Below are positions 1,750 through 62,556 of a stretch of 64,000 nucleotides of DNA, one piece after another. The stretch is from an uncultured Gammaproteobacteria bacterium (GTDB taxonomy: Bacteria > Patescibacteriota > Microgenomatia > Woykebacterales > RBG-16-39-9b), in the NCBI GenBank assembly GCA_965231125.1, contig OZ246414.1, positions 757,440 to 821,439 of the forward strand. Reading direction: 5' to 3'. A model generated the notes under the pieces. The model was not told where the DNA came from, did not search any database, and worked only from the letters and a program-made list of their open reading frames with translations. Position 1 is the stretch's first letter. Each line of letters opens with the position of its first letter. Made by a program: the position numbers and the translations under genes.

Positions 1750-2475
1750 CTATTTAAATGGATTTGATGTACCAAGACGATTGTTTGCCGGCCTTGATAA
1801 GTACTTTATGTTGCTCATTATTGAGTTAACTAAATCTTTCTCTTGAAGGGTAAGTGATACAATTTCACCCGGAGTAACCGAAGCTGAAGACGCACCAAGA
1901 GGAACTTCTAAAGTTAGGTCGCCTTCCAGAGCGTTGTCGCCTTGAGTTATAGTAACATCCGTGACAGCCACTAGTCTATCCGCATTTTTGTAACTTGCGA
2001 TAAATTTGAGGATATTATCAAAATTACCAATTACTACAATTGATAACTTGTAAGATTTATTAGAAGTTTGATTTGGCACCTGGGTAGCAGGAGTTGCTTG
2101 AGTACTAGATGAAGGCACTCCGCTACTGGAAACATTAGTTTCTACATCCTTAACTTTAACACCAGCGGACTGGGCCAAAACCTCGTTTAGAGTTACTAAC
2201 TTTAAGGTATCCTGGGTACCTGGGATGTATTTATTTATAAACGACGAAACTTCTTGAATCTCAGATTTATCTAAACTTTTTGCTGCTGAAATCCCATCTT
2301 CCAACTGCTTTACATTTTGTTTAAGACCACTGTTCTCGGAACTCGTTTCAAAGTATGAAGTAAGTCTTGGGTAAATCAAAAAATAAATTATCGAGACGCT
2401 AAAAACAAGCGTCACCAAAATGCTAATTGCAATAAAAAATGAAGTCTTTTTAAAAATTTTCTTTAATTCTTTCAT
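1750..2475 (-). CDS. pilO: PilO-like type IV pilus assembly protein
   Basis: 241 aa with an N-terminal TM, then a coiled-coil/periplasmic domain. Overlaps the upstream PilN-like gene by 4 nt, indicating translational coupling. The position and architecture match PilO. Confidence 0.45.
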   Translation of the reverse strand: MKELKKIFKKTSFFIAISILVTLVFSVSIIYFLIYPRLTSYFETSSENSGLKQNVKQLEDGISAAKSLDKSEIQEVSSFINKYIPGTQDTLKLVTLNEVLAQSAGVKVKDVETNVSSSGVPSSSTQATPATQVPNQTSNKSYKLSIVVIGNFDNILKFIASYKNADRLVAVTDVTITQGDNALEGDLTLEVPLGASSASVTPGEIVSLTLQEKDLVNSIMSNIKYLSRPANNRLGTSNPFK

Positions 2476-3023
2476 TTCAGCTTAAAACTAAAAATAAAGT
2501 CGTACGAGGCTGCTCCCAACTTTGAAATACCTACAATCTTAGGGGAATCAAAATCTTGCTTATTTTCATTTAAGTAATTAAGCGACTGATAAACTATTGC
2601 TGGTCTTTGAGCCTCCCCCTCTAGTTGAACTGAACCATCACCCGTAACTGAAAGGGTCTTCACCCTTATTCCGACTGGCAATGAATCTTGAATTTTTTTA
2701 ACTCTAGCTTCTTGAGCTGGATGAGTGCTTAAAAAACTTTGGTAAAGGCTAATCTTTCCCTTTGCGGCTTTTAGAGTAGCGGCTGGGGTGGATACCTCTT
2801 GCCATTCTAAGTTATCGGCTGAAAGCTGATATTGGAGCTTTTTTTGTTGGGATTTTTCTTTATTGTCGACGAGGAATACACCTACATATGCCAAAACTTC
2901 ACCGGCCAGTATTGCTGCCAAAACAACTAGAACAGCTGATCGGATTTTTTTAGTTCGTAACTTCTGCTCCTCTTCGGGTATTAAGTTTATATCGGAAGAC
3001 TTGCCAAATAATCCAAACAGCAT
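2472..3023 (-). CDS. pilN: PilN-like type IV pilus assembly protein
   Basis: 183 aa. The N-terminal INLIPEEE matches the conserved INLLP PilM-binding motif of PilN, followed by a single TM and a periplasmic domain. Confidence 0.55.
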   Translation of the reverse strand: MLFGLFGKSSDINLIPEEEQKLRTKKIRSAVLVVLAAILAGEVLAYVGVFLVDNKEKSQQKKLQYQLSADNLEWQEVSTPAATLKAAKGKISLYQSFLSTHPAQEARVKKIQDSLPVGIRVKTLSVTGDGSVQLEGEAQRPAIVYQSLNYLNENKQDFDSPKIVGISKLGAASYDFIFSFKLK

Positions 3024-3032
3024 AGGCAGTTT

Positions 3033-3195
3033 TAATAAACTTCCGAGGGCTAAAACCCTCGGTATTGTTCTTTAAGTTTACACGAGCGCAGAAAACCCTT
3101 GAAAGTCTAACTTACATTTCCCCTCAGAAGTGTGTAATCACTCTTAGCATTCATCCCCACTTTAAGAAAGTGGATTTTCTGCTAGCGATTATAAC
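3033..3195. repeat. 163-bp intergenic repeat family B, copy 1 (exact duplicate of 55949-56111)
   Basis: The two copies are identical by eye over about 163 bp. It contains the hairpins ccgagggctaaaaccctcgg and cactttaagaaagtg. Its minus-strand end carries a perfect TATAAT (gttataatcgctagc). Confidence 0.85.
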
Positions 3196-3235: not shown

Positions 3236-5059
3236 TTAATAAATTTCCTTCCAACTAGTTATTTCAAAGCCGCCGCCGGGGCCTGACGAAAAGCCACTGT
3301 CGGCAAACCCGCTCGTGTAGTTCACAGTAGCATTTTGATCGATGGCGAGCTTATAACCGGTTATTTGACCAGAACCAGCCCTATTTTTTAAATGAATCTC
3401 TCCCTTTGGTGCGTAAAGAATTACAAGCCCTGCATTATTCGATAAATCCAAGGCAGCATTACTGGCTGTACAAGGCAAACCAGAAGGGCTAATGCTGGTA
3501 TTACCATCACAATCGTTTGTTGTTATCAACATAAAGTAACTACTAGGTTGGCCAGAACCAGAAAATTGGACATTAGTTCCTAAATCCACGTAGCCGTCAG
3601 AAAGCAAAATTCCTCCTTCTGATCCGTACGATGGGTCTAAATTCAAGATTGCCCCACCACCAACTTGGATATTACCATGCACCCAGACAGTACCAGTCAG
3701 AGTAAAGTTATGACCAACCGGTATAGTAAAGTCACCCGTGATTTCCTTTGGCCCCAAACTTGAGGATGTGCCTGATGGTGTATAGTCGCCACTTATAGTC
3801 CCACCGTCCTTAGCCTGACTCTTAAAATCGGAAATATTGGCATCTGAAAGCGGGAAACTTTGAGGGGCAGGTACAGCTTGAGATGTATCGCAAGGTTTGT
3901 TGTTTCCAGAACCGACTTTACAATAATTATTACCAGCGATGGTAGAGCCATCCACCTCATACGCCTTTGCATCACCCACCCCGGCAGTACCGACTTCTAT
4001 ACTATTGATTAAATTTTGGACCCCGCTAAGTGAAAGTTTGAAGTAACCATCTAAGCCGGTATTAGACCACGGGCCGGCGGAATACTGGCCTATCTTTGCT
4101 AAACCAGAAGTGTAGGAATTATTCGCCGCCCAAACGTAATATTTACTTGAGCTATTGCTCCCATCTAAAACTAGCCAGTAAGTTATCCCTGTTGAAAGCT
4201 GTGGATTAGAAGTGAAGTTTACCGTAACCCAACCATAACTCGTACTCACACTTGAGTCATTCAAAGAACCACTTGCATATGTTGTTGACCCGGGATTTCC
4301 AGAAGAATTATTTGTTATTCTAACTGTCACATTCGAAGGATTACCAACTTTCTTTATATAAAGATCAACACTTTTTGCCTGATCCGTAGTTGAAACTTGA
4401 AAACTTTGGCCCGTATCTTCGGAGGAGTTGTTGTCGCCAAAGGTAATTGAGCTACCCGGTATAGCTGGAGTGGAATTGTCTTGATCCACGCTACCAATAC
4501 CAGTAGCCGCAAAGGCGGATCCTGTTATTACCGATTTGGTCACACCACCACTAATGCTCCCATTTGAATAAACGTTGCCATCTATTGTTGAATTATTCAA
4601 CATCACCACTCCTCCATAACCAACTTGGACTCCATAGTTAAACGAGACTTTATTTGAGTGGGCGGTTGCATTTAGATCTACTTCTATCTCACGCACCCTG
4701 CCATCTACGTCTGCCTTAGAAGTAACCACTGTGGCCGACAGCGGACCACTAATGTTCACGGCAGTACTTCCTCCGCCAACGCTAAGAGTGTAACTTGCGC
4801 TGTACTTCATCCGATTTTTCAATCTTAGAACTGCATCCTCGGCGCCCGACTCGGCAACGTAATAACTTTGGGCAGATTTTACAACGTTATTAACCTTTTT
4901 AATTTCGTTAAAGGTTAAAAGGCCGACGGCGGCGGCAAGTACAGCTGCTGCCGACAAAACCACTGCAATTGTCGCCAGTGTCACCTGCCCTCCCTCTGGC
5001 AGTACTTTGATAAATGATCGTTTGATTTTATCCGTAGCTTTGAAACTTTTGATTATCAT
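3236..5059 (-). CDS. large Gly/Ser/Thr/Asn-rich surface protein with an N-terminal hydrophobic anchor, encoded within the minor-pilin operon
   Basis: 607-aa ORF. The N-terminal TM is VTLATIAVVLSAAAVLAAAVGLL, followed by G/S/T/N-rich beta-rich sequence. It lies immediately downstream of three prepilin-type genes. Confidence 0.4.
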   Translation of the reverse strand: MIIKSFKATDKIKRSFIKVLPEGGQVTLATIAVVLSAAAVLAAAVGLLTFNEIKKVNNVVKSAQSYYVAESGAEDAVLRLKNRMKYSASYTLSVGGGSTAVNISGPLSATVVTSKADVDGRVREIEVDLNATAHSNKVSFNYGVQVGYGGVVMLNNSTIDGNVYSNGSISGGVTKSVITGSAFAATGIGSVDQDNSTPAIPGSSITFGDNNSSEDTGQSFQVSTTDQAKSVDLYIKKVGNPSNVTVRITNNSSGNPGSTTYASGSLNDSSVSTSYGWVTVNFTSNPQLSTGITYWLVLDGSNSSSKYYVWAANNSYTSGLAKIGQYSAGPWSNTGLDGYFKLSLSGVQNLINSIEVGTAGVGDAKAYEVDGSTIAGNNYCKVGSGNNKPCDTSQAVPAPQSFPLSDANISDFKSQAKDGGTISGDYTPSGTSSSLGPKEITGDFTIPVGHNFTLTGTVWVHGNIQVGGGAILNLDPSYGSEGGILLSDGYVDLGTNVQFSGSGQPSSYFMLITTNDCDGNTSISPSGLPCTASNAALDLSNNAGLVILYAPKGEIHLKNRAGSGQITGYKLAIDQNATVNYTSGFADSGFSSGPGGGFEITSWKEIY

Positions 5060-8630: not shown

Positions 8631-8765
8631 GGCCTAAATTGTATCACACACTTGGTGTGTCAATAAAATGCTTAGCTAGGCAGAAGTTGCCTAGCGCAGC
8701 GCGCGAGAATACCTGAGAAACCAAAAAGCTTGCAGGTTTCGAAGTTATGGAGCGAGCTATAGGGT

Positions 8766-9954: not shown

Positions 9955-11439
9955 TCAAGGCGTGGCAAAAAACATTCCACAAAGCCTGCAGTATTTAGAT
10001 GTGTTCTTACACTATACGCCTAATAAAAAGGAAAATCAACCCCGCTGTGTTATCCCGAACTAGTTTCTGGATCTCTCATAGCTTCACTCTTCGAGATGAT
10101 GGCTGACGATTGGAAGGGTCGAGGGGTGGAGCAAAAAACTGCACCCCTCGACATAGGACCGCTGAAGATGCAGATGGCTCGTCAGATCTACATCTAAAGC
10201 GGAGAGGTTGGCCAACCGCTTGCGAGAATGACTGGTGGTCGGTTAACCAACCTAGTCAACCACACCTGAGTTAGGACGCTAACGTTCCTGGTGTGGTTCG
10301 GTTACAAACTTTTCAACGGGAGGGCGATGGCGGTACGAACCGATTCTAAGTCTCAGGGAACGTAGACTTTCTCCTGGAGGTCCTGGGAGTTGAATCAGCC
10401 GACCACCATCACCGCCCTACAGAACAAACCGACTGGGCCCTCGCCTTATGTGCGCCCTATCGAATTGCTCACGAAAAAATAAATACAGTAAGTTCTCTCC
10501 TCTAAATAAAACATATTCTCTTTTTACCGACGTGTCAAGCGATTGATTGTTTGTTGGAAAATTGAAAATGGTCCCTAAAAAGGTGGAGGAGAAGTAGAGG
10601 GGTCCAACTAGTGCTGGTAGGGGACGGCGCTTTCTTCTCCTCCGGGGTTGCTACACCAGGTTCGTGGGGAAGCATGAACCTAGCGATAGCCAAGTTTGGT
10701 GACTAAGAATGTCTGGCTGACAATCCTAGCCGTTGCACGTATTTTGACCTCCTACCGAGAAGTTCATTCACTTCCCAATTCACGCGCCTTCTTCCTTCAT
10801 TCAAATGCATCACCCCTTTCTCCAAAAAGAGAGTTTGACGATGAGGGAGGGGACTCACTGTGGAAAAACCATCAGCGGTTCATCGTCATTGTTCAAACCG
10901 TTGCAGCGCTTATGCGGGACTGGATACCGGCGGTGGTTGCCGTGATACAACTATACTCCAACTTACAACCGCTATGGCGATCGTACAGCCAGAGACCTGC
11001 AACCTTGCCCCTCCCCTTTCAAGGTGCAATAGATAAAATTTAAACTTTCTTTTGGAAAAAGTCAAATGAAGTAGAGGAAAAAAATTTGGGCTAGGGAAAA
11101 CTATCCTGTTTTACCCTAGCCCGACCGGTTAGACTCGTCACCTCCGCAACTTAAGTCAGGTTACGAAGAACTCTCCATGTAGTCCGCTTAGGCCTTCTGG
11201 TCGCCAGAAGCGAACCGGGATTCGGGAACAGCTCGGGCAGCACCCCCCACGCCGATCCTTCTTGATGTTGATAACGACAATTCATATGTTCGTCATCCTT
11301 TCACAATCGAAAAGCACACGCCACTAGCGTATGCACCGTTGGGATTGCTCTTTTCTGCCCTCCTTTCTCATTTGCTCACTGCAGGTTTACTTAACCCACT
11401 GAATTCTAAGTTACAGCTTTTTTAGGGAAAAATCAATAG

Positions 11440-11474
11440 CTTAAGCATATAGTCGTAGACTATGCTTAAGCGCA
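11440..11474. other. perfect 11-bp stem hairpin in an ORF-free region
   Basis: gcttaagcata tagtcgtagac tatgcttaagc. The adjacent cccgccagctggcggg is a second perfect palindrome. Confidence 0.6.
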
Positions 11475-12037
11475 GGATCCGCAATACCTGGCCCGCCAGC
11501 TGGCGGGGCAAAAGGTATGAGGATTCTATAGGAAGGATAAGGCAAGGGAAGTGCTTCGAAGGTAAAGCCCTACCCTTGCCAGTTGCTTGGGCTCGTTTTT
11601 TTTTTTGCTCCACGCAGCAGACCTAACTAAGTATTACCTTGTCCTCACTCCCTTCCGTCAATTTGGTAAAAGTGTGTTCCCCTTCACGTCACACACTGTA
11701 TTTGGCTGGCAGCCGGAGAGGTTAGTAGCAAGCTGCCCCGTGCCTCATGTCGCCGTGGATAACGGGATGTCGGCGTCGCTGTACCCGATTCAGTAAGGGC
11801 TCGTTGTCACACCTTTTGAATTTAGCCGGCACAAGACCCTCTCCTCAATGCTACTGCCTCGACCAACCGCCCTAATGATAGATCGAATTTATGAAAAAAT
11901 CAAGAGTATTGGTGTACATTCTAACAACACAATCAGTCATTCTGGCTTGTCCAGAATCAGGTTGGTTTAGACGCGGATTCTGGAATCACTCCGACAAGTC
12001 ATACTAGCCTTCGCTCACCAGAATGACAAAAGTTGGT

Positions 12038-12488: not shown

Positions 12489-13046
12489 TCAAATTTCGCT
12501 CTCAATTTTCTTGAGAACTTTTTCTATTTTCAAATAAAACTGCGTTAAGTTTTTGGTGTTAGTAATTGAAAAATCGGCCATTTGCATAACCTTCCGAGTC
12601 TCTTGGCCATATTCGTTTTTCTCATCTAAATCCCGCTCTTCCATCTTTAAAAATCCCTCCCAGGTTTTTGGGTCGCGGCTGCTGCCGCGGATTTTCATTG
12701 CTTTGAAACGGGCTTTTTTATTTCGATCAACGGAAATTAAGGAAGAGCCGCCTTTACCTCGGAAAAATTCCACTTCACCCCTATTTCTTAACCCGTCGAT
12801 TACCACTTTTTTAGATTTCGATTTGTTAATTTTTTCCCAAACTTCTCTCGCCAAAATATCCGTACCAAATTTTTTTCTTAACTGGTTGCCTAGATCTTGC
12901 CGCGTGGCGCGTGAAGGAGGGTTCTTCAAATGATGTTTCTCGAGAATGATGTCAGAGAGTTTGTAGTAATCAAAACCTCTAGAAACTAAATATTCGACTG
13001 CGGTGCTTTTCCCCGCACCCAACGTGCCAACCACTCCTATAATCAT
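12489..13046 (-). CDS. P-loop nucleotide/nucleoside kinase (dephospho-CoA kinase / NMP kinase-like)
   Basis: N-terminal Walker A MIIGVVGTLGAGKSTAVEYL. The ~185-aa size fits a small kinase. Exact specificity not determinable. Confidence 0.45.
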   Translation of the reverse strand: MIIGVVGTLGAGKSTAVEYLVSRGFDYYKLSDIILEKHHLKNPPSRATRQDLGNQLRKKFGTDILAREVWEKINKSKSKKVVIDGLRNRGEVEFFRGKGGSSLISVDRNKKARFKAMKIRGSSRDPKTWEGFLKMEERDLDEKNEYGQETRKVMQMADFSITNTKNLTQFYLKIEKVLKKIESEI

Positions 13047-13126
13047 AGATCAACTCAGATATGAACTCCTAACTCTAAATTCTGCATTCTTCATTCCCAT
13101 TTATCACTTATTACTTGTTACTTATT

Positions 13127-13720
13127 TTAGTATTCTCTTCTTCCTTCGATCGCGCGGGAAAGGGTTACTTCGTCGGCGTATTCTACATCGCCACCGACCG
13201 GAAGTCCATGGGCAAGTCGCGTGACGCGTACGCCAAGAGGAGAAATAAGTTTTTGGATGTACATCGCGGTGGATTCTCCCTCAACGGAAGGGTTTGTCGC
13301 CAAAATAATTTCTTTAACGCCGTCTTTTAGACGAGGGAAAAGTTCTTTAATGTGGAGTTCCTCCGGGCCAATATTGTCCAAGGGTGCGATCGCCCCGTGA
13401 AGAACGTGGTAAAGGCCTGTGTAGCTGTGCGAGCGTTCCAGAGCCAAAACATCCAAAGGCTCCTCCACTATCATTATTTGGGAGCGGTCGCGGCCGGCCG
13501 AGGCACAGACAGAGCAAGGGTTTTCCTCGGCAATGTTAAAACAAGTGGTACAAATAATGGTTTTTTCTTTCAGCTCAGAAATGGCAGCCGCTAGTACATC
13601 TGAACGTTCTTTTGGGGCGTGAAGTAAAAAATAAGTAAGCCGTTGCGCGCTCTTTGGCCCAATTCCCGGAAGTTTTTCAAATTCGGCAATTACGGCCTCA
13701 ACTGATTTGGGAATTCTCAT
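13127..13720 (-). CDS. recR: recombination protein RecR
   Basis: 197 aa. Helix-hairpin-helix GIGPKSAQRL, Cys4 zinc finger CTTCFNIAEENPCSVC, and a Toprim-like C-terminus. Confidence 0.9.
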   Translation of the reverse strand: MRIPKSVEAVIAEFEKLPGIGPKSAQRLTYFLLHAPKERSDVLAAAISELKEKTIICTTCFNIAEENPCSVCASAGRDRSQIMIVEEPLDVLALERSHSYTGLYHVLHGAIAPLDNIGPEELHIKELFPRLKDGVKEIILATNPSVEGESTAMYIQKLISPLGVRVTRLAHGLPVGGDVEYADEVTLSRAIEGRREY

Positions 13721-13795
13721 TATAAATATTTTACCACATCAAAAAGAAAGCGCCCAAGGGAAAAATCTTGGACGCTCGCGACAACACTGCGATGT

Positions 13796-14377
13796 TCACG
13801 GCTTCGTAACTAGACTGTTGTAGAATTTTAACACTATAACAATCAGTCCGATGGTGCCAAGAACCACCAGGATAAGATTACCGGGTGGAGACCAATAGGT
13901 CCCGAATGTTCCAAAAAGGGCTCGATCGGTCGTAATCTTGATAGCGCTGCCAGCGCCTACGGCATTTCCGGGGATCTCCACGCTGTCCACCGACCTACCA
14001 AATCCGGACTTGTAGATCGTTTCGGTTGAGATGTAGTAGTCTACACCATCGCCAGGCGGAGCGATTGCGAATTTTGTCAAGTACACCTTCGCATCGGTGT
14101 AGGACAAAGTTACCACCCTGGGCTTGAGATTCTTACTGGCAAACTCCGCTGGTTTAAGCCTCTGGCTAATTCCATCGCTAGGAAAAGTTACATCGTTGCT
14201 GATTGCATACGGAATCCCCTGAATGTCTGGGCGCTTGATACTCACCTCGGCCTTACCTGTCTTTGGGAAAACCTGCCACCCGGAAATCCCACCCAAGACC
14301 AGCAACAAAACCACTGTGATCACCCGCCCAGTACGGACAAAAAATGGGTCAACCTCGGAAAGTGTCGTTGCGTTCAT
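13796..14377 (-). CDS. hypothetical exported/membrane-anchored protein (G+C higher than neighbours)
   Basis: 193 aa with an N-terminal TM helix. Also a C-terminal hydrophobic segment GNLILVVLGTIGLIVIVL. Confidence 0.35.
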   Translation of the reverse strand: MNATTLSEVDPFFVRTGRVITVVLLLVLGGISGWQVFPKTGKAEVSIKRPDIQGIPYAISNDVTFPSDGISQRLKPAEFASKNLKPRVVTLSYTDAKVYLTKFAIAPPGDGVDYYISTETIYKSGFGRSVDSVEIPGNAVGAGSAIKITTDRALFGTFGTYWSPPGNLILVVLGTIGLIVIVLKFYNSLVTKP

Positions 14378-18060: not shown

Positions 18061-18135
18061 TTAGTCCACGAAGTGGTCGCAGCACGCGGAGTATTCGGCT
18101 TCGGCACAAGGTGCGGAAGGCGTAGAATACGAGCG
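18061..18135. repeat. 75-nt intergenic palindromic repeat family A, full copy
   Basis: ttagtccacgaagtggtcgcagcacgcggagtattcggcttcggcacaaggtgcggaaggcgtagaatacgagcg is near-identical to 36440-36514 (a few mismatches). It contains a GACCAC/GTGGTC hairpin and further imperfect stems. Confidence 0.8.
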
Positions 18136-18151
18136 TGCTATACTTGAATTA

Positions 18152-18517
18152 ATGACCGTCGAGGAAGCGTTTACCAAAAGACTTCACAACGTTCCGGTAA
18201 CTACTAGTGGCATAGTTATAAAAATTCTGGCTGATGACAACGGTGAAACCCCTCACCAACGGTTTATTATTGAGCTGCACCGCGGCCATACGCTGTTAGT
18301 CGCGCACAATCTTCTCCGGGCTTACCGGGTGCCCGTGAAACTCGGCGATAAAGTCGAAATTCACGGCACTTACGTTTGGAATAAATACGGTGGCATTGTT
18401 CACAACACCCATCATTACGGCGGCGAGTGCGTGGGCGGCACATGCGACCCTCACGAAGACGGCTACATAAATTTCTTTGGATTAAAAAAACCCAACGTAG
18501 AAAAAATTGCCTCTTAA
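18152..18517 (+). CDS. DUF3465-family protein
   Basis: 121 aa. HQRFIIEL, LLVAHN and GGIVHNTHHYGG match the conserved blocks of DUF3465. Confidence 0.55.
   Translation: MTVEEAFTKRLHNVPVTTSGIVIKILADDNGETPHQRFIIELHRGHTLLVAHNLLRAYRVPVKLGDKVEIHGTYVWNKYGGIVHNTHHYGGECVGGTCDPHEDGYINFFGLKKPNVEKIAS
18439..18489. repeat. 51-bp direct repeat, copy 1 (inside the 3' end of the DUF3465 CDS)
   Basis: cacatgcgaccctcacgaagacggctacataaatttctttggattaaaaaa recurs exactly at 20284-20334. Confidence 0.85.
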
Positions 18518-20283: not shown

Positions 20284-20334
20284 CACATGCGACCCTCACG
20301 AAGACGGCTACATAAATTTCTTTGGATTAAAAAA
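20284..20334. repeat. 51-bp direct repeat, copy 2 (displaced original 3' end of DUF3465)
   Basis: Exact match to 18439-18489. In the DUF3465 frame it would read ...TCDPHEDGYINFFGLKKSTTA-stop. Confidence 0.85.
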
Positions 20335-26053: not shown

Positions 26054-26071
26054 ACTAAAAAGCTAAGTCTA

Positions 26072-26163
26072 TCCAATTTTTGAGGCTTCACTGGCACAAG
26101 CGCCGATGACTATACTTATAACTTGACTTAATTCGCGCGGATTTGAAGCCGAAAAAATTGTTG
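26072..26163. repeat. 92-bp intergenic repeat family C, copy 1 (exact duplicate of 31564-31655)
   Basis: tccaatttttgaggcttcactggcacaagcgccgatgactatacttataacttgacttaattcgcgcggatttgaagccgaaaaaattgttg is identical in both copies. Each sits between a minus-strand stop and the next minus-strand start. Confidence 0.85.
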
Positions 26164-28057: not shown

Positions 28058-28468
28058 TTAACGATTCAACCATCGAGCGCGAGCTTTACCACGCCACGTT
28101 AGCGGTGGAACATGTTTTAGCACAGCGTTTAATTTTTCCTCAAATTCCCTCGCATTTTCCATCTCAGCTAGCTTCTGCAAACCAACCTCAACACCCCTTT
28201 TGTACGCAAGTTGATGCTTCATCGAGTTAATTGTTGTCTTACTTACTTTTAAGATATCTCTAATATCGCTTGAGCTAAAACCCCGCTTTAACATCCACAT
28301 TAAAAATAGTCTTTTGGAAAGCATTAATTTTTCTTCGGGGGTTAAGAAATCCGTGAGGAAAATCTTTATTTCTTCCTCATTATCTAACTCAGCAACTAAA
28401 GAGGTGAAAAAATCGACTAACTGTCTGTGGACATCTTTCTCAACTGGAATCCTGGAAACTCTCGGCAT
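28058..28468 (-). CDS. TrpR-related YerC/YecD-like DNA-binding protein
   Basis: 136 aa with a central helix-turn-helix-like segment (...LMLSKRLFLMWMLKRGFSSSDIRDILKVSKTTINSMKHQL...). Size and pattern are consistent with the TrpR-like family common in small-genome bacteria. Confidence 0.4.
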   Translation of the reverse strand: MPRVSRIPVEKDVHRQLVDFFTSLVAELDNEEEIKIFLTDFLTPEEKLMLSKRLFLMWMLKRGFSSSDIRDILKVSKTTINSMKHQLAYKRGVEVGLQKLAEMENAREFEEKLNAVLKHVPPLTWRGKARARWLNR

Positions 28469-28530
28469 TAGTCCAGTATACTGGTATATTGGACTCCTGT
28501 CAATTTAAATATTTTATAAATCAGTGCGCC

Positions 28531-31537: not shown

Positions 31538-31563
31538 TATTAAGTAAGAGCCTGTCCAATTTT

Positions 31564-31655
31564 TGAGGCTTCACTGGCACAAGCGCCGATGACTATACTT
31601 ATAACTTGACTTAATTCGCGCGGATTTGAAGCCGAAAAAATTGTTGGCAGGCGAC
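31564..31655. repeat. 92-bp intergenic repeat family C, copy 2
   Basis: Exact match to 26072-26163. Lies between the tsf stop and the frr start. Confidence 0.85.
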
Positions 31656-33452: not shown

Positions 33453-33640
33453 AGCAGCCCTCTCCTTTCTTGGTAACTGTTACCTCCCCACCTTAGGAAG
33501 GTAAGCTGGACCCGAAAACCCACCTTAGGTAATCAGGTGCAACTGTCTTCCTACGATGCGCGGATTATAGCGCTATAGGTTCAAAAAGTCAATCCTCCAC
33601 CCCAATAGTCCAATATACCAGTATATTGGACTTAATGAGG

Positions 33641-36439: not shown

Positions 36440-36514
36440 TTAGACCACAAAGTGGTCGCAGCACGCGGAGTATTCGGCTTCGGCACGAAGTGCGGAAGGC
36501 ATAGAATACGAGCG
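36440..36514. repeat. 75-nt intergenic palindromic repeat family A, full copy
   Basis: Near-identical to 18061-18135. Lies between the dUTPase-like paralog start and the dcd stop. Confidence 0.8.
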
Positions 36515-36516
36515 GG

Positions 36517-37116
36517 CTATTTTACCTCCTTGAGTTTCTTCTGGGCTGAAAACTCTTCTCCCAACTTACTAGCGATTGGGGTCTTCTGACCAATGTACTT
36601 GGCCCCTTTTCTTTTTCGATAAGGATTTTCAACTGGGGAAGAAACTTGTTCGAAAGTGAAAGAACAGATTCTCATACCAGGATAAAGTGCCACCGGCATT
36701 ACGCCAATATTTCCCAGTTCCATCACTGGTCTCCCTTTCCACCCCGGGTCGAAACGGGCGGCAGTTGAATGAACTATAATTCCCAAACGACCCAGACTAC
36801 TGCGACCCTCGAGCCGTCCCAGCAAATCATCAGAAATCGAAAGATCCTCCACCGTTGTCGCCAAGCAAAACTCTCCCGGCCGCATAATAAAAGCTTCGTT
36901 TTTGCCAACAACTATTTCTTTCATGATCTCGCCGGCGGCAGACATATTCCTTGGATCTATATAAGGGTACTTAGAATGGTTAAAAATCTTAAAGGTGCTG
37001 CCTAAGTGAAAATCGATTGAACAACTACCGAGTTGTACAGAAAGGTTGGGCTGCGGAGTAATCTTAATTTTTCCTTCTTTAATTGACTTGCGTATGTCCG
37101 TATCAGAAAGAATCAT
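36517..37116 (-). CDS. dcd: dCTP deaminase
   Basis: 199 aa, colinear with E. coli Dcd. Shared blocks include IDFHLG, GRLEGRSSLGRLGIIVH, DPGWKGRPVMELGN (catalytic Glu present) and YPGMRICSFTFE. Confidence 0.8.
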   Translation of the reverse strand: MILSDTDIRKSIKEGKIKITPQPNLSVQLGSCSIDFHLGSTFKIFNHSKYPYIDPRNMSAAGEIMKEIVVGKNEAFIMRPGEFCLATTVEDLSISDDLLGRLEGRSSLGRLGIIVHSTAARFDPGWKGRPVMELGNIGVMPVALYPGMRICSFTFEQVSSPVENPYRKRKGAKYIGQKTPIASKLGEEFSAQKKLKEVK

Positions 37117-41244: not shown

Positions 41245-41270
41245 GAATGCTGCGACCACATGTGGTCTAA
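41245..41270. repeat. partial inverted copy of repeat family A
   Basis: gaatgctgcgaccacatgtggtctaa is the reverse complement of ttagaccacatgtggtcgcagcattc. Confidence 0.55.
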
Positions 41271-44194: not shown

Positions 44195-45331
44195 CTACCT
44201 ATCCACCGCATCTGCACCAACATTGACAGTACCAGAGACGGTTTGTCCGGAGGTAGGGTTAGTTATGTTAACAGTTGGTGCAAGAGTATCACCAGCTGCT
44301 GGACAAGTAAATCCTGCCGCATTGAGGGCTCCACAGGCATCAAGCCTTCCCCAGCCATAAGTTGAATCCCAACCAGGTGTTCCTAGATCCACGGCACTGT
44401 TGTAGATTGCCTGGACAGCAGCAGCTGGTGAGACTCCTTTGGAAAGTAAGAGCCCCAGCACACCAGACACGAGGGAGGAAGCCGGATACGTACCTGAGAC
44501 ATAACCATAGCCTCCAAAGTTTGTCGCAGCCATAATGTTAACACCCGGCGCCGTCAGGTCAATCGCTGCGCCTCGGCCCGAGAACGAGAGAACGCTATCT
44601 GTCTGGTCGGTAGCACCGACAGCCACAACGTTGGCTAGACGGGCCGGATAGGCAACAGTGTAGTCAGCGTTGCCGGTTGGCGCCACAACAATTACGCCTT
44701 TGCTGACGGCGTAGCTGACCGCTGCCTCTAGTTCAGGCAAAGTCGTGTCATACCCCCGGGTAACGATAACATCGGCGCCATGGTCCGTCGCCCAAGTGAT
44801 GCCTTCGGCAAGGTCAGTTAGGGTACACGTATTGGTAGATTCGACACATACTGTTACCGGCATAATCTTGCAGTTCCAACAGACTCCGGCTATGCCGATG
44901 CTGTTATTAGTGGCGGCAGCAGCTACCCCCGCCACCGCGGTTCCTTGATTGTAGCCTGTGCCTCTGTCGTCGGTATCACCACCGCTGACGGTGTTGATTC
45001 CGGGTACCAGCTTCCCCGCTAGGTCCGGGTGTTCCTGATCGACCCCGGTGTTGAGGACGGCGATGACTACGTCGCTAGTACCCGTTGTGATGTCCCAGGC
45101 AGCTGGTGCCCGGATCTTGTCAAGAGCCCACTGGTACCCAGCTTGAAAGTAGGGGTCGTTCGGTGTGGTCGCGGCTCTAGAGGTTGGTTCTCGACTCTGT
45201 TGGACTAAAGTAACGGTGAAAGGGATAGATAAGAAAATGATTAGAGTACCAATAATACTCAAGAGATGTCTTTTGTCTTTTAGATTAATTTCTTCTTTTA
45301 GGTAACTCATCTGGGCAAGCACTCTCATCAA
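44195..45331 (-). CDS. subtilisin-like (S8) pseudo-protease, exported, with shared N-terminal anchor and truncated Ig-like C-terminal tail
   Basis: 378 aa with an S8 fold (VIAVLNTGVDQEHPDL...NQGTAVAGVAAAATNNSIGIAGV...SGTYPASSLVSGVLGLLLS). The catalytic Asp/His/Ser positions read N/A/Y. The N-terminus is identical to that of the gene at 52696-54177. It ends PTVNITNPTSGQTVSGTVNVGADAVDR. Confidence 0.75.
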   Translation of the reverse strand: MMRVLAQMSYLKEEINLKDKRHLLSIIGTLIIFLSIPFTVTLVQQSREPTSRAATTPNDPYFQAGYQWALDKIRAPAAWDITTGTSDVVIAVLNTGVDQEHPDLAGKLVPGINTVSGGDTDDRGTGYNQGTAVAGVAAAATNNSIGIAGVCWNCKIMPVTVCVESTNTCTLTDLAEGITWATDHGADVIVTRGYDTTLPELEAAVSYAVSKGVIVVAPTGNADYTVAYPARLANVVAVGATDQTDSVLSFSGRGAAIDLTAPGVNIMAATNFGGYGYVSGTYPASSLVSGVLGLLLSKGVSPAAAVQAIYNSAVDLGTPGWDSTYGWGRLDACGALNAAGFTCPAAGDTLAPTVNITNPTSGQTVSGTVNVGADAVDR

Positions 45332-45360
45332 GTAAATTATATACCTAGTTAATTATCCGT
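45126..45360. repeat. 235-bp exact duplication, copy 1 (3' tail of metzincin gene + 17-nt spacer + first ~68 codons of S8 gene)
   Basis: Identical by eye to 53972-54206. Confidence 0.85.
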
Positions 45361-47334
45361 CGCACTAACCCCCACGTTAACTGTCCCCGAAACGGTTTGG
45401 TTGTTGGTTGGATTAGTGATGTTAACTGTGGGAGGAACGGTATCTCCACCCGATGCGAGGACTCCATAGCTAATCGTTTTTGAGCTAAAACTATTTGAGT
45501 TGGAGCCGTTCGTCGCGGTCACAATTGCGTCGTAAATATTACCGACGATGGCGCTGGCCGGTGAAGTGAGCGCCAGGGTTGAAGTGCTGGTTGCTCCCGG
45601 AGCCAATGAAAGTAGTATATTGGGCGTGAAACTAGCCGTAAAACCGATTTGCAGCAGATAATATAACGAGAAGGTTGAAGAGCCGCACTCGGGGCTATCA
45701 TTATTAGTAACCGTCACGGAATAGTTTAAAGTTGATCCGGCTTCACCCCAGGCAATTGTCGGCGAGACTACCATTGTTGGAGGCACTCTAGAGCAACCGA
45801 CGACCGTGGGGATTTGGATATCAAGACTAACTTGGCTGGCGCTGATCGAGGCAATTTGGACTGTGATTCCTTTGTCGCTATCCTCAAAGACGCTGCCGAC
45901 TTTTAATTGCGCATCTGGAAATTTGGTCGATGGTGAGGCGTCAATTAACTGAGTGTCTCCGCCACTAGCAGATTTTGGAGCGTAGTGGATCAAAACGCCG
46001 GACAGCTCGGGTCGGTACTCAAAATAAAGCCAGTTAATGATGTTACCGCCAGCGGTTTTGTCGCGCGGAATCTTGATGATTTTTGGACCACTCGACCCGT
46101 AATAATCACTGAGCGTATAAGTACCGCTTGAGCCGACCTGAAGGCTATCACCAGAAACAAAAAAGAACATTTTTTCTTTGTGATAAGCATTGTGTTGGTT
46201 ATTGCTACCTCCCATAATTGAGTACCAATCACCATATTCATCTGAAGTACAGCCACTAGTTTTGATGCTGACCCCGCTGCAGTCATAGTAATTGGCGTGT
46301 AAAGCTCCAAAATTGTGCCCGAGTTCATGACCGACAATGTGTAAACTAAAGTTGGTCGCGCCATTTATCCAAGAAGTACCGCCGCCTTGAACACTACTAA
46401 GAGTCGCCAACCCACTAAAACCACAGTCGCTCATATAAGGAAAAACTACCATTAATTTTCGATAGGCAGCCAAGTTTTCACCCGCGGCGGTAGCCGCTTG
46501 AGTGGCTAGAGAGTAAATTTGCGAAGTATTACAGGTTGCAGGCAGGTTGACAGTGTAACCGGCTGCTTTGCCAGAAAAGCGCATCTTGCCGTAGGAGTTA
46601 TCTTGATAAAAAGTGCTGACCTGGGAAAAAACAACCGATTGAGCACTAGCTACGCTAACAGTATTATTTAAAACCATCACCAAAATTGTTTGATCCAGTA
46701 CCCCCAAGACTGCGCCTTTTACCTGATCCTCCCCAGAGACTTTTTCGACCGCAACCTCTTGACCAATTTTAATACCGGAAACTTTTACCTCTTCGTTGGC
46801 CAAACTAATGAGGGCATCAACATTCTCCTGAGATGGGTAAAGGTTGAATCCAGTTCCGTTAGATTTTAATTTGTAGTAAAATCCTCCCTTTTTTCTCTCA
46901 AAATCATCCCAGTGGGAAACTCCCAGGTTTCCCTCTAGAGTAACCTGCTCTTCGGTATTGACTTGAATTTCAGAGGGTAAAATCCCCTTGGCTTTCTGAT
47001 CAAAGGCAACTCTTACTGCCAGGTCAGGATCTTTTTTAATTAAAGTGGCCATCTTCTCTTTTCTTTGCTCGGAAAGATCAACCATCTTTGCTAGCACTTG
47101 AGGTTTCCGATTGCTAGAAGATTCTCGGTATTTTGAATTTTCTTGAACGAGCTGCCTCGTTAATTGTAAAAGCAGTTCCTTGTCCGAAAGTATCGCAGCT
47201 CTACCGCTGGGTTCTCTTGAGCTCAAGGTCAAGACGACGGTGATTGGTATCGAAAGAAAGATAAAGAAAGTGGCCGCAAGGACAAGCAGATGTTTTTTAT
47301 TTTTTAAATCAACCGGTTCTTTTAGATGATTCAT
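45349..47334 (-). CDS. exported metzincin-type zinc metalloprotease with beta-sandwich (CARDB-like) domain and truncated Ig-like C-terminal tail
   Basis: 661 aa. The HEXXHXXGXXH motif HIVGHELGHNFGALHAN is intact. The N-terminal anchor KKHLLVLAATFFIFLSIPITVVLTLSSREPSGRAA belongs to the shared family. It ends PTVNITNPTNNQTVSGTVNVGVSATDN. Confidence 0.65.
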   Translation of the reverse strand: MNHLKEPVDLKNKKHLLVLAATFFIFLSIPITVVLTLSSREPSGRAAILSDKELLLQLTRQLVQENSKYRESSSNRKPQVLAKMVDLSEQRKEKMATLIKKDPDLAVRVAFDQKAKGILPSEIQVNTEEQVTLEGNLGVSHWDDFERKKGGFYYKLKSNGTGFNLYPSQENVDALISLANEEVKVSGIKIGQEVAVEKVSGEDQVKGAVLGVLDQTILVMVLNNTVSVASAQSVVFSQVSTFYQDNSYGKMRFSGKAAGYTVNLPATCNTSQIYSLATQAATAAGENLAAYRKLMVVFPYMSDCGFSGLATLSSVQGGGTSWINGATNFSLHIVGHELGHNFGALHANYYDCSGVSIKTSGCTSDEYGDWYSIMGGSNNQHNAYHKEKMFFFVSGDSLQVGSSGTYTLSDYYGSSGPKIIKIPRDKTAGGNIINWLYFEYRPELSGVLIHYAPKSASGGDTQLIDASPSTKFPDAQLKVGSVFEDSDKGITVQIASISASQVSLDIQIPTVVGCSRVPPTMVVSPTIAWGEAGSTLNYSVTVTNNDSPECGSSTFSLYYLLQIGFTASFTPNILLSLAPGATSTSTLALTSPASAIVGNIYDAIVTATNGSNSNSFSSKTISYGVLASGGDTVPPTVNITNPTNNQTVSGTVNVGVSATDN

Positions 47335-47335
47335 A

Positions 47336-49816: not shown

Positions 49817-49869
49817 AGACAGTTGGGATAATTATCCCCTAACTAGCCCTGGATTGTCAAGCCACGGCC

Positions 49870-52251: not shown

Positions 52252-52262
52252 AAATTAATTTT

Positions 52263-52676
52263 TCATTTCACAACCACACTACCGTTAGTAGTTGGGTGGA
52301 GCTGATCGTGATACCCAAAAGTGCCACTCTTCTCAAACGTAAACGTGTAAATCTCGCCTTTTTTCAAAGGTTTTTTAGCATCAAATCCGGCAAGACCATT
52401 GTTGATCGGGTAAGGATTAGAGGCCGGCTGATGAGCCTTTGAGTCTTCATTAATCCAACCCACGGTTTCGCCCTTATTAATTAAAATTGTTTGGGGGTTG
52501 AAACCATTCTTGGTAATAGTTACGAAGGCGGTCGGTGCCGGCTTTTTGGGTAGTGCCGGGCCAAGCTTCAAATGACCTCTGGAAATTAATAGTGCAATAA
52601 TTAAAGCTAAACCGAGGATAATTACTACAACTAATTTTTGTTGTTTTTCCACTATTAAAATTATCTTATTTATCAT
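52263..52676 (-). CDS. small membrane-anchored cupredoxin-fold-like protein lacking Cys ligand
   Basis: 137 aa. N-terminal TM, then GETVGWINEDSKAHQP...YTFTFEKSGTFGYHDQLHP, reminiscent of the plastocyanin-like fold. No cysteine present. Confidence 0.35.
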   Translation of the reverse strand: MINKIILIVEKQQKLVVVIILGLALIIALLISRGHLKLGPALPKKPAPTAFVTITKNGFNPQTILINKGETVGWINEDSKAHQPASNPYPINNGLAGFDAKKPLKKGEIYTFTFEKSGTFGYHDQLHPTTNGSVVVK

Positions 52677-52695
52677 ATTAGGTTGTCAAGCTCAA

Positions 52696-55883: not shown

Positions 55884-55948
55884 TTGGAGAGATTATATTT
55901 AATATTTTGCAGCTTAGCAAGGAAACGTTTACTTAGTATTGAGGATCC

Positions 55949-56111
55949 TAATAAACTTCCGAGGGCTAAAACCCTCGGTATTGTTCTTTAAGTTTACACG
56001 AGCGCAGAAAACCCTTGAAAGTCTAACTTACATTTCCCCTCAGAAGTGTGTAATCACTCTTAGCATTCATCCCCACTTTAAGAAAGTGGATTTTCTGCTA
56101 GCGATTATAAC
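55949..56111. repeat. 163-bp intergenic repeat family B, copy 2
   Basis: Exact match to 3033-3195. Lies between the stop of the gene at 56124 and the guaA start. Confidence 0.85.
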
Positions 56112-62335: not shown

Positions 62336-62556
62336 CGGCTGTCCTCCGCATTCAGTCTAACACCGCCAAAAATCATTATCAACAGGTAAATTTTTGAATA
62401 GGGTCTAAACCTACTTTACTACCACCAAAATAGATCAGAATGACGTCCTCCCCGACTGAAGTCGGGGTTGCCGACGTTTTCTCGCCCCGCCGGTCGCGAG
62501 GCTTGAAAATAAATTAAGGTTTAACTACAGTCAGACGTTTGTGCTATTATCGAAGG

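What the first reader, a model, noticed from the sequence alone, without database searches (positions are those of the whole stretch)
3033..3195. 163-bp exact intergenic repeat carrying a perfect -10 box and two hairpins, present upstream of pilNO and of guaA
Copies at 3033-3195 and 55949-56111 are identical. Each lies directly after the stop of a large surface-protein gene (3236 and 56124) and before the next minus-strand gene (pilN-like, guaA). In minus-strand orientation the repeat begins with GTTATAATCGCTAGC and continues through two stable hairpins to ~10 to 60 nt before the downstream start codon. It looks like a portable promoter plus a long structured leader. On the plus strand the same hairpins are followed by T-rich runs, so an antisense small RNA is also possible. 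Identical 163-bp elements 53 kb apart suggest mobility or gene conversion.
Basis: partly seen in the sequence, partly recalled or inferred. Interest (0 to 1): 0.5.

Follow-up and report, generated by a model that had tools for sequence, protein, structure and literature searches.

The report
Small mobile repeat, not a leader
The 163-bp exact repeat is real, but it is most likely a short, gene-less transposable element (at least three copies in this tiny candidate-phyla-radiation bacterial genome) that has landed in intergenic spacers, not a regulatory leader for pilN or guaA.

Summary
In detail: 3033-3195 and 55949-56111 are 100% identical, with sharp borders, a TATAAT at the gene-strand 5' end and two perfect hairpins. 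There is also a third copy outside the window, upstream of a DivIC gene on the same 915-kb genome. It has one SNP and appears in two independent assemblies. Distant relatives (51-78% protein identity) have short spacers (27-69 nt) at the orthologous pilN and guaA sites and lack the element. guaA keeps its own conserved TATAAT 8 nt before its ATG, downstream of the element, so the "portable promoter plus leader" reading is not supported. The three copies share TTAT at both borders, with no inverted terminal repeats and no target duplication. Hairpins sit 16-17 nt from the left border and 8 nt from the right. A 111-nt relative in another metagenome contig (L007) has the same right end, a collinear left end with covarying stems, and TTTAT at both borders. 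It lies antisense to its neighbouring genes and lacks the -10 box. This anatomy fits a non-autonomous IS200/IS605-type ("PATE-like") element. No transposase could be examined, so that mechanism is inferred. It is a new member of a known kind, of modest interest.

The parts
3033..3195 (-). Copy 1 of the 163-nt repeat. Under the transposon model the element proper is 3035-3190 (156 nt).
   Evidence: Exact repeat. Junctions confirmed in JGI contigs L002 and L024.
55949..56111 (-). Copy 2 of the repeat. The element proper is 55951-56106.
   Evidence: Exact repeat. Junctions confirmed in L001, L020 and L021.
3191..3194 (-). TTAT immediately 5' of the inferred left end (candidate transposon-adjacent motif). 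With the next three bases (AAT) it forms the TATAAT at 3188-3193. The copy-2 equivalent is 56107-56110.
   Evidence: Shared by both 5' junctions, and the same tetranucleotide ends the element in all three copies.
3135..3191 (-). Left-end compound hairpin: outer stem, inner stem, then an internal loop (GAAAAT / GGATGAA) around hairpin A.
   Evidence: Seen in both the ssDNA and RNA minimum-energy folds. L007 has the same three-tier architecture with different stem sequences.
3157..3173 (-). Hairpin A (CCACTTT-CTT-AAAGTGG), the left subterminal hairpin. Its foot is 16-17 nt from the inferred left border. The copy-2 equivalent is 56073-56089.
3113..3113 (-). Element position 83: A in both window copies, G in the copy carried by JGI contig L024. 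Three JGI contigs stop exactly beside this base.
3043..3062 (-). Hairpin C (CCGAGGG-TTTTAG-CCCTCGG), the right subterminal hairpin, terminator-like on both strands. The copy-2 equivalent is 55959-55978.
   Evidence: A 33-nt module including this hairpin is 97% identical in L007.
3035..3038 (-). TTAT ending the element (candidate transposon-encoded motif), 8 nt after the foot of hairpin C. The copy-2 equivalent is 55951-55954.
   Evidence: The three 3' junctions are GTTTAT|TAAAAC, GTTTAT|TAGGAT and GTTTAT|AATCGCC.
55892..55897 (-). guaA's own -10 box (TATAAT), 8 nt before the ATG. It is not part of the element and shows the element is not needed as a guaA promoter.
   Evidence: Conserved in position in L016, L017, L018 and L019. 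The same leaderless-type layout occurs at many first genes of operons in the window.

Best explanation
The repeat is a short (about 156-163 nt), gene-less mobile element present in at least three near-identical copies in this roughly 0.9-Mb Patescibacteria (CPR, Woykebacteria-like) genome. Its anatomy best fits a non-autonomous derivative of an IS200/IS605-family insertion sequence, a 'PATE-like' element.

Inferred mechanism: a Y1 (HUH) TnpA transposase encoded elsewhere would recognise the two subterminal hairpins on the top strand, which here is the gene (minus) strand. It would cut after the TTAT 5' of the left end and after the TTAT that ends the right end. It would then excise a single-stranded circle and paste it 3' of another (T/G)TTAT, leaving no inverted repeats and no target duplication.

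The TATAAT at the left border is a by-product of TTAT plus the element's first bases, AAT.

Effects on neighbouring genes are side effects: extra hairpins that may act as partial terminators, and possibly an inward-firing -10 box.

Shown: the copies, their borders, absence from relatives, the related element in L007, and the conserved fold. Inferred: the transposase, the single-strand mechanism, and any transcription.
For: 1. Dispersed, near-identical copies.
- There are two exact copies in the window.
- A third copy sits upstream of a DivIC gene. Its neighbouring proteins are recorded on the same NCBI 915,171-bp contig.
- The third right junction is seen independently in a Logan contig of the window's own strain.
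- Assemblies break inside the element.

2. Insertion relative to relatives.
- The guaA spacer is 33-69 nt in four contigs from relatives, against 240 nt here.
- The spacer between the 607-aa orthologue and pilN is 27 nt in L023, against 212 nt here.

3. Borders.
- There are no terminal inverted repeats and no target-site duplication.
- TTAT lies at both borders in every junction available.
- The third right junction reads GTTTAT|AATCGC, which reproduces the left border TTAT|AATCGC. This looks like a right-end/left-end joint, or an insertion into a TATAAT box.

4. Geometry.
- The hairpin feet are 16-17 nt (left) and 8 nt (right) from the inferred cut sites.
- IS608 has 19 and 10 nt, with the left cleavage motif outside the element and the right one inside it (PMC3201880).

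5. Known motif. TTTAT is the documented transposon-adjacent motif of ISGst2. In that family the adjacent and encoded motifs are nearly identical, and gene-less PATEs exist (bioRxiv 10.1101/2023.03.14.532601).

6. A family member in another organism, L007 2626-2736 (111 nt).
- It has TTTAT at both borders and its right end is 97% identical over 33 nt.
- Its left end is collinear with this element's (local alignment beaten by 34 of 1000 shuffles).
- It folds as ssDNA into the same three-tier left end, with different stem sequences but conserved loop sequences AAAT(A) and ATGAA (z -6.8 and -3.7).
- It lies antisense to its flanking genes.

7. Orientation. The top strand is the G-rich strand, which is the lagging-strand template, as expected for this family (GC skew). 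Copies 1 and 2 share this orientation; copy 3's replication context is unknown.

8. No known RNA family. Rfam gives no match at gathering thresholds, and only noise at E up to 10.
Against: - No TnpA or TnpB gene is present in the window or in about 14 kb of extra flanks from the same genome. The other roughly 840 kb could not be read.
- The left and right hairpins of this element differ in sequence and loop size, whereas IS608's two hairpins are alike. L007's two hairpins are alike.
- The IS608 guide/cleavage pairing rule (GL AAAG with TTAC, GR GAAT with TCAA; PMC5934647) fits the right end (AATA predicts TTNT). It fits the left end only if a T.G pair is counted as the hairpin foot. In L007 the right stem can extend over the putative guide. 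In A/T-rich sequence such 3-of-4 fits are weak evidence.
- The left motif here is GTTAT, not TTTAT.
- Only three copies and one relative are known. The relatives used for the empty-site comparison are distant (51-78% protein identity), so insertion is inferred from spacer length, not from a clean empty site.
- The 5' part of contig L024 may be chimeric, so the true left flank of copy 3 is unknown.
Confidence: 0.5

Rival explanations
1. A dispersed intergenic repeat that is mobilised by something other than an IS200/IS605 transposase. Candidates are a site-specific recombinase acting on a TTAT core or an IS110-like enzyme. Alternatively it was simply copied by recombination or gene conversion. 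The TTAT and hairpin resemblance would then be coincidental.
For: - The evidence for several copies and for insertion is the same as for the best explanation.
- The two hairpins of the element are unlike each other.
- The guide rule fits only loosely.
- No transposase was seen.
Against: - TTAT at both borders, the subterminal hairpin distances, the lack of inverted repeats and duplications, and a documented TTTAT motif in the family all point to the IS200/IS605 mechanism.
- The flanks of the three sites share nothing beyond the short motif. That argues against homology-driven copying and against a long bridge-RNA-type target.
Confidence: 0.22
2. A self-contained small-RNA gene in several copies. 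Transcription would start about 7 nt after the TATAAT, produce a structured RNA of roughly 145 nt, and end at hairpin C. The RNA, not the DNA, would be the functional unit. An omega-RNA-like guide scaffold carried by a gene-less element is one version of this.
For: - A perfect -10 box sits at the extreme 5' end and a terminator-like hairpin at the extreme 3' end, in the same orientation.
- Intergenic minus-strand TATAATs in this window often look like real promoters.
- The sequence is structured (z -3.8).
- PATEs are reported often to encode omega RNAs.
Against: - Neither copy has a -35 box, and only copy 1 has an extended TG (and sequence).
- The outer stem of the conserved left-end fold includes the -10 box and the predicted start site, so it could not form in such a transcript.
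- The L007 relative has no -10 box at the corresponding place.
- The U-tract after hairpin C on this strand is poor (AAGUUUAUUA).
- Both strands are equally structured.
- There is no Rfam match, including to HEARO-type RNAs.
Confidence: 0.15
3. One reading: a portable promoter with a long structured 5' leader that controls the downstream gene (pilN/pilO or guaA).
For: - All three copies point towards the downstream gene.
- Copy 1 ends 9-11 nt before the pilN ATG.
Against: - guaA and the DivIC gene keep their own -10 boxes between the element and the start codon. guaA's is conserved in relatives that lack the element.
- A terminator-like hairpin lies between the -10 box and the gene.
- The three downstream genes have unrelated functions.
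- The L007 relative is antisense to its neighbours.
Confidence: 0.06
4. A host-selected terminator or insulator (or mRNA 3'-end stabiliser) placed after highly expressed secreted-protein genes.
For: - Hairpin C is flagged as terminator-like on both strands.
- Copies 1 and 2 follow large exported proteins.
Against: - Relatives manage without it at the same junctions.
- Exact identity and sharp borders point to recent copying, not to conservation at each site.
- The tail on the gene strand is weak.
Confidence: 0.05

Closest known systems
PATEs (palindrome-associated transposable elements): gene-less derivatives of IS200/IS605 elements, for example those related to ISGst1 and ISGst5 in Geobacillus stearothermophilus
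   Same: Short and without any gene. No inverted terminal repeats and no target duplication. Hairpins near both ends. A short motif 5' of the left end and a near-identical motif ending the right end. Several near-identical copies. A trans-acting transposase is presumed.
   Different: No parental IS or TnpA has been identified. The left and right hairpins are dissimilar. The host is a CPR bacterium. There is no sequence similarity to described elements.
IS608 (Helicobacter pylori), the mechanistic reference for peel-and-paste transposition
   Same: The left cleavage motif lies outside the element and the right one inside it. The hairpin feet are a comparable distance from the cut sites (16-17 and 8 nt, against 19 and 10). 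A tetranucleotide 5' of the right hairpin is complementary to the cleavage motif under the IS608 pairing rule.
   Different: The motif is TTAT at both ends instead of TTAC and TCAA. There is no tnpA or tnpB. The left-end guide fits only under one choice of hairpin foot.
ISGst2 (TnpB-bearing IS605-type element)
   Same: Its transposon-adjacent motif is TTTAT. This element ends in TTTAT, and L007 has TTTAT on both sides.
   Different: The two window copies have GTTAT on the left. No TnpB or omega-RNA homology is detectable.
Classical bacterial MITEs and intergenic repeats (Correia elements of Neisseria, ERIC/IRU, RUP, BOX). This comparison is from general knowledge and was not tested here.
   Same: About 100-200 bp, intergenic, structured, multi-copy. 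They can carry promoter-like or terminator-like sequences that perturb neighbouring genes.
   Different: Those elements have terminal inverted repeats and (for Correia) a TA duplication. This element has neither.

Membership tests
IS200/IS605-derived non-autonomous element (PATE) | No terminal inverted repeats | tested here: met
   The ends GTTATAATCGC and GGAAGTTTATTA are not complementary. The repeat finder reports no inverted pair for the element, and the fold shows two separate domains.
IS200/IS605-derived non-autonomous element (PATE) | No target-site duplication | tested here: met
   The flanks of copies 1 and 2 share no direct repeat apart from the TTAT motif itself.
IS200/IS605-derived non-autonomous element (PATE) | Subterminal hairpins at both ends, at short fixed distances from the cleavage sites | tested here: met
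   Hairpin A is 16-17 nt from the left border and hairpin C 8 nt from the right border. IS608 has 19 and 10 nt.
IS200/IS605-derived non-autonomous element (PATE) | Conserved short motif immediately 5' of the left end (TAM) and a similar motif ending the right end (TEM) | tested here: met
   (G)TTAT lies before AATCGC at both known left junctions. GTTTAT ends all three right junctions. L007 has GTTTAT at both borders. Only 2-3 junctions per side are known.
IS200/IS605-derived non-autonomous element (PATE) | Guide tetranucleotide 5' of each hairpin foot pairs with the TAM/TEM | tested here: inconclusive
   The right end fits: AATA predicts TTNT, and TTAT is observed. The left end (AAAT or AAAA) fits only if the T.G pair is taken as the foot. 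L007's right stem can extend over the guide.
IS200/IS605-derived non-autonomous element (PATE) | Left and right hairpins alike, so that one TnpA dimer can bind both | tested here: not met
   CCACTTT-CTT-AAAGTGG against CCGAGGG-TTTTAG-CCCTCGG. This feature is met in the L007 relative (CCGTGGAC-TTTA-GTCCACGG against CCGAGGG-TTTTAG-CCCTCGG).
IS200/IS605-derived non-autonomous element (PATE) | A cognate Y1 (HUH) TnpA, or a full-length parent IS with the same ends, in the genome | not testable with these tools
   No such Pfam hit in any window gene, nor in the precomputed annotations of the L002 and L025 flanks. The remaining roughly 840 kb of the genome could not be fetched.
IS200/IS605-derived non-autonomous element (PATE) | Top strand on the lagging-strand template | tested here: inconclusive
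   The orientation is consistent: both window copies have the top strand on the G-rich gene strand. With n = 2 (copy 3's replication context is unknown) this has no statistical weight.
Classical MITE (TIR plus TSD, DDE transposase-mobilised) | Terminal inverted repeats and a target-site duplication | tested here: not met
Any described RNA family (riboswitch, leader, sRNA, HEARO/omega RNA) in Rfam 15 | Covariance-model score at or above the family's gathering threshold | tested here: not met
   No hit in the window at gathering thresholds. At E up to 10 over 351 nt, only sub-threshold noise.
Sigma-70-type promoter | A -35 and a -10 hexamer with 16-18 nt spacing | tested here: not met
   The -10 box is perfect, but neither copy has a -35-like hexamer and the scan returns no site. 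Copy 1 alone has a TG extension, and it comes from the flank.
Intrinsic terminator | G+C-rich hairpin followed directly by a U-tract | tested here: inconclusive
   Hairpin C passes the simple scan on both strands. On the gene strand the tail is AAGUUUAUUA, so the U-run is separated from the stem.

The most novel reading that the evidence does not exclude
The element belongs to a CPR-specific family of gene-less IS200/IS605-like elements whose conserved three-tier left-end fold and right-end scaffold are transcribed from the border-generated TATAAT. The transcript would be an omega-RNA-like guide whose 3' flank targets the empty donor site for a TnpB or IscB nuclease encoded elsewhere. That would make it a free-standing, mobile guide-RNA gene in an ultra-small genome.
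Probability: 0.1. Interest if true: 0.6.

Novelty: new member of a known kind. Interest (0 to 1): 0.3.

Why it matters
CPR/Patescibacteria genomes are very small and are usually thought to carry few repeats. A recently active, gene-less transposable element shows that such genomes still host mobile DNA. Identical copies of this kind can break assemblies, which happened here in two public datasets. They can also support rearrangements: two direct copies here bracket 52.9 kb of essential genes. For annotation, the lesson is that a perfect -10 box plus hairpins upstream of two unrelated genes need not be a regulon signal. If the IS200/IS605 link holds, the element marks where to look for a TnpA, and possibly a TnpB, in this lineage.

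Tried and rejected
Searches that found nothing useful:
- A genome-contig scan with an internal 20-mer gave only two chance hits, of 21 and 26 nt.
- A metagenome-contig scan with the hairpin-C 20-mer gave 11 loci. Ten are unrelated terminators sharing only the hairpin; only L007 extends further.
- Phage, plasmid and viral-contig searches found nothing.
- A protein search with the element's one open frame, meant to catch spurious ORF calls over other copies, found nothing.

Readings considered and rejected:
- attL/attR of an integrated island. The 52.9 kb between the copies is housekeeping (cysS, recR, dnaX, mfd-like helicase, pth, rpsB, tsf, frr, topA, dprA, thyA).
- DGR template/variable repeats. 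The copies are identical and non-coding, and they lie after conserved stop codons.
- Integron attC. The core motifs do not fit.
- Coding for a small peptide. There is only a 15-aa ORF with no ribosome-binding spacing.
- IS110/bridge-RNA type. The three target flanks are dissimilar.

Analyses that gave nothing usable:
- RNAalifold on a MAFFT alignment of the element with L007 misaligned the left ends. The structural comparison therefore rests on the separate folds.
- A hairpin-plus-TTAT scan of the window found no further family member.

Full report

Yes. Window 3033-3195 and 55949-56111 are identical over 163 nt, and the flanks are unrelated from the first base outside on both sides. blastn-short and nhmmer find no third or degenerate copy within the 64 kb.

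All genes around both copies are on the minus strand.
- Copy 1 lies between ORF 3236-5059 (607 aa, no Pfam hit) and ORF 2472-3023 (183 aa).
- Copy 2 lies between ORF 56124-58193 (689 aa; Big_7, SBBP, He_PIG, dockerin) and guaA 54357-55883.
- The 183-aa protein is PilN-like. Its 45%-identical, same-length homologues carry PF05137.

In gene orientation the repeat starts GTTATAATCGC. It contains two perfect 7-bp hairpins and ends 9 nt (pilN) or 65 nt (guaA) before the next start codon. On the plus strand both hairpins have T-rich tails.

The repeat is not an assembly artefact. Contigs from JGI sample 3300010391 (99.9% identical strain) and from the Logan assembly of SRR6155503 (100% identical) carry the flank-to-element junctions and stop inside the element.

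**2. Organism and genomic habits**

guaA is 100% identical to a protein recorded on an NCBI contig of 915,171 bp. The nearest named relatives are Candidatus Woykebacteria at 74% identity. The host is therefore a CPR/Patescibacteria bacterium.

The window is housekeeping throughout and has no transposase.

Many first genes of operons have a -10 box 6-10 nt before the start codon, often with a TTGACA 17 nt upstream. This suggests leaderless mRNAs are common here. It matters for reading the TATAAT in the element.

**3. The leader/promoter reading fails**

- *guaA site.* In four contigs from relatives, the spacer between the upstream gene and guaA is 33-69 nt, against 240 nt here. In all of them, and in the window, a TATAAT sits 7-9 nt before the guaA ATG. 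In the window it is at 55892-55897, which is downstream of the element. guaA therefore keeps its ancestral promoter, and the element is an addition upstream of it.
- *pilN site.* Relatives have the orthologue of the 607-aa protein directly before pilN. The spacer is 27 nt in L023. In L022 it is 143 nt and contains a different hairpin-rich insert at the same point. The sequence CTGCCTATG before the start codon is conserved in all of them.
- *No -35 box.* Neither copy has one, and the promoter scan finds nothing.
- *A hairpin in the way.* The terminator-like hairpin C lies between the -10 box and the downstream gene.

**4. A third copy fixes the borders**

JGI contig L024 runs from the 607-aa gene through an element copy into a new flank. 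That flank carries a DivIC gene and further genes that are not in the window. The copy has one substitution, A to G at element position 83.

Two proteins of that flank are recorded on the same 915-kb NCBI contig. Logan contig L025, from the window's own strain, begins with the last 30 nt of the element followed by the same flank. The genome therefore has at least three copies.

The other three JGI contigs stop exactly beside position 83. The breaks thus reflect an A/G bubble among copies. L024's 5' half may be chimeric, so the left flank of copy 3 is unknown.

| Junction | Copy 1 | Copy 2 | Copy 3 |
|---|---|---|---|
| Right | GTTTAT\|TAAAAC | GTTTAT\|TAGGAT | GTTTAT\|AATCGCC |
| Left | …TTG TTAT\|AATCGC | …GGG TTAT\|AATCGC | unknown |

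TTAT therefore bounds the element on both sides. There are no inverted termini and no target duplication. The third right junction reproduces the left border for 10 nt.

The TATAAT is simply TTAT plus the element's first bases, AAT. At locus 3, TTAT plus a flanking AAT recreates it on the right as well. That is what insertion into a TATAAT box would give.

**5. A relative in another organism**

The metagenome scan returned L007. It shares 33 nt (97%) with the right end, including hairpin C and AGTTTAT.

Read on its plus strand, L007 2626-2736 is a 111-nt unit:

GTTTAT|TTCGC…AAATA-[CCGTGGAC-TTTA-GTCCACGG]-ATGAAGCGAAG…AATA-[CCGAGGG-TTTTAG-CCCTCGG]-TAGTTTAT

- Its left part aligns collinearly with this element from the very border (34 of 1000 shuffles reach the score).
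- Folded separately as ssDNA, both left ends adopt the same three-tier structure. This consists of an outer stem starting at the border, an inner stem, and an internal loop AAAT(A)/ATGAA around the subterminal hairpin.
- The stems differ in sequence while the loop sequences are conserved (z -3.7 and -6.8).
- L007's unit lies between two co-directional genes but on the opposite strand. It has no -10 box at its left border.

**6. Mechanism**

These features match IS200/IS605 "peel-and-paste" elements.
- In IS608, cleavage occurs 3' of a tetranucleotide that lies 19 nt 5' of the left hairpin and is not part of the IS.
- At the right end, cleavage follows a tetranucleotide 10 nt 3' of the right hairpin, inside the IS.
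- Both motifs are read by 4-nt guides 5' of the hairpin feet (PMC3201880; PMC5934647).
- In Geobacillus elements the adjacent and encoded motifs are nearly the same, ISGst2 uses TTTAT, and gene-less PATEs exist.

In this element the distances are 16-17 and 8 nt and the motif is (G/T)TTAT. The right guide AATA predicts TTNT. The top strand is the G-rich strand, which is the lagging-strand template.

Weak points:
- The two hairpins of this element are unlike each other.
- The left guide fits only if a T.G pair is counted as the hairpin foot.
- No TnpA could be looked for outside about 78 kb of the genome.

I therefore put 0.5 on the IS200/IS605-type mechanism. I put about 0.8 on the broader statement that this is a mobile or dispersed repeat and not a regulatory leader.

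**7. Rivals**

- A repeat moved by another mechanism (0.22).
- A multi-copy small-RNA gene, including an omega-RNA-like version (0.15).
  - For: the -10 box at one extreme and the hairpin at the other.
  - Against: the conserved outer stem needs the -10 region itself, L007 lacks the box, both strands are equally structured, and Rfam is silent.
- A host terminator or insulator (0.05).

**8. Verdict**

The repeat is real and correctly described. The mobility inference is right and the regulatory inference is not supported. It is a new member of a known kind (a PATE-like element) in an unusual host, and its interest is modest. Genome-wide copy number, the transposase and transcription remain untested.

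Noticed in passing
window 9955-12037 (minus strand): A roughly 2.1-kb stretch with no real ORF and raised G+C (0.485), between a DUF1003 gene and yqeY. ORF fragments give no Pfam hit even at E up to 1, and Rfam gives nothing. The minus-strand RNA folds far better than shuffles (z -6.96 for 10000-10990, -4.31 for 11000-11990). The plus strand gives -2.97 and a coding control (13000-13990) gives -0.85. It is a candidate large structured non-coding RNA and may be more interesting than the finding itself.
   Followed up: partly
window-wide, e.g. 8638-8643 (cysS), 13728-13733 (recR), 28475-28480, 55892-55897 (guaA): Many first genes of operons have a TAnAAT box 6-10 nt before the start codon, often with TTGACA 17 nt upstream, and no Shine-Dalgarno sequence. 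Internal genes have AGGAGG. This suggests widespread leaderless mRNAs in this CPR bacterium. guaA shows the same layout in four contigs from relatives.
   Followed up: partly
window 18061-18141, 36440-36520, 1389-1420 (inverted): A second intergenic repeat family: an 81-nt hairpin-rich unit (93% identical copies). Its 3' module TGCTGCGACCAC-NNN-GTGGTC occurs three times in both orientations, against 0.01 expected by chance. A weaker fourth look-alike (AGACCACATGTGGTCGCAGCA) lies just upstream of topA, near 41250-41270. There is no Rfam match.
   Followed up: partly
window 26066-26163 and 31549-31646; 18439-18489 and 20284-20334: Two further small repeats. One is a 98-nt unit (98% identical) just upstream of a HIT-family gene and of frr. 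The other is a 51-nt exact repeat. Several repeat families in 64 kb of a 0.9-Mb genome is unexpected.
   Followed up: no
window 33607-33633 and 28466-28495: A perfect 11-4-11 palindrome, AGTCCAATATA-CCAG-TATATTGGACT. A near-copy overlaps the promoter and start of a Trp-repressor-family gene (28058-28468). This is probably that repressor's operator, present at two sites.
   Followed up: no
L022 906-1048 (relative, GCA_044345325.1): At the same point upstream of pilN where copy 1 sits, this relative has a different insert of about 95 nt. It has two hairpins and ends in TAATAAT just before the conserved CTGCCTATG. The site may be a recurrent landing place.
   Followed up: partly
L024 (JGI Ga0136847_11584287) 4365-4527: This contig joins the pilus-operon 607-aa gene, through an element copy, to the DivIC locus instead of to pilN. 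It is either an assembly chimera across the repeat or a real rearrangement between element copies in part of the population.
   Followed up: partly
window 44195-54177: About 10 kb of paralogous secreted protease and adhesin-like genes (S8, M12-like, NHL, Big_7, CBM96), with internal repeats spaced 8.8 kb apart. The block lies between guaA and dprA. In L018 dprA follows guaA after one small gene, and in L016/L017 topA does.
   Followed up: no
window 62336-64000: A second ORF-poor stretch (about 1.6 kb) upstream of mreB. Nothing over 94 aa, and the 94-aa ORF is not on record as a called gene.
   Followed up: no
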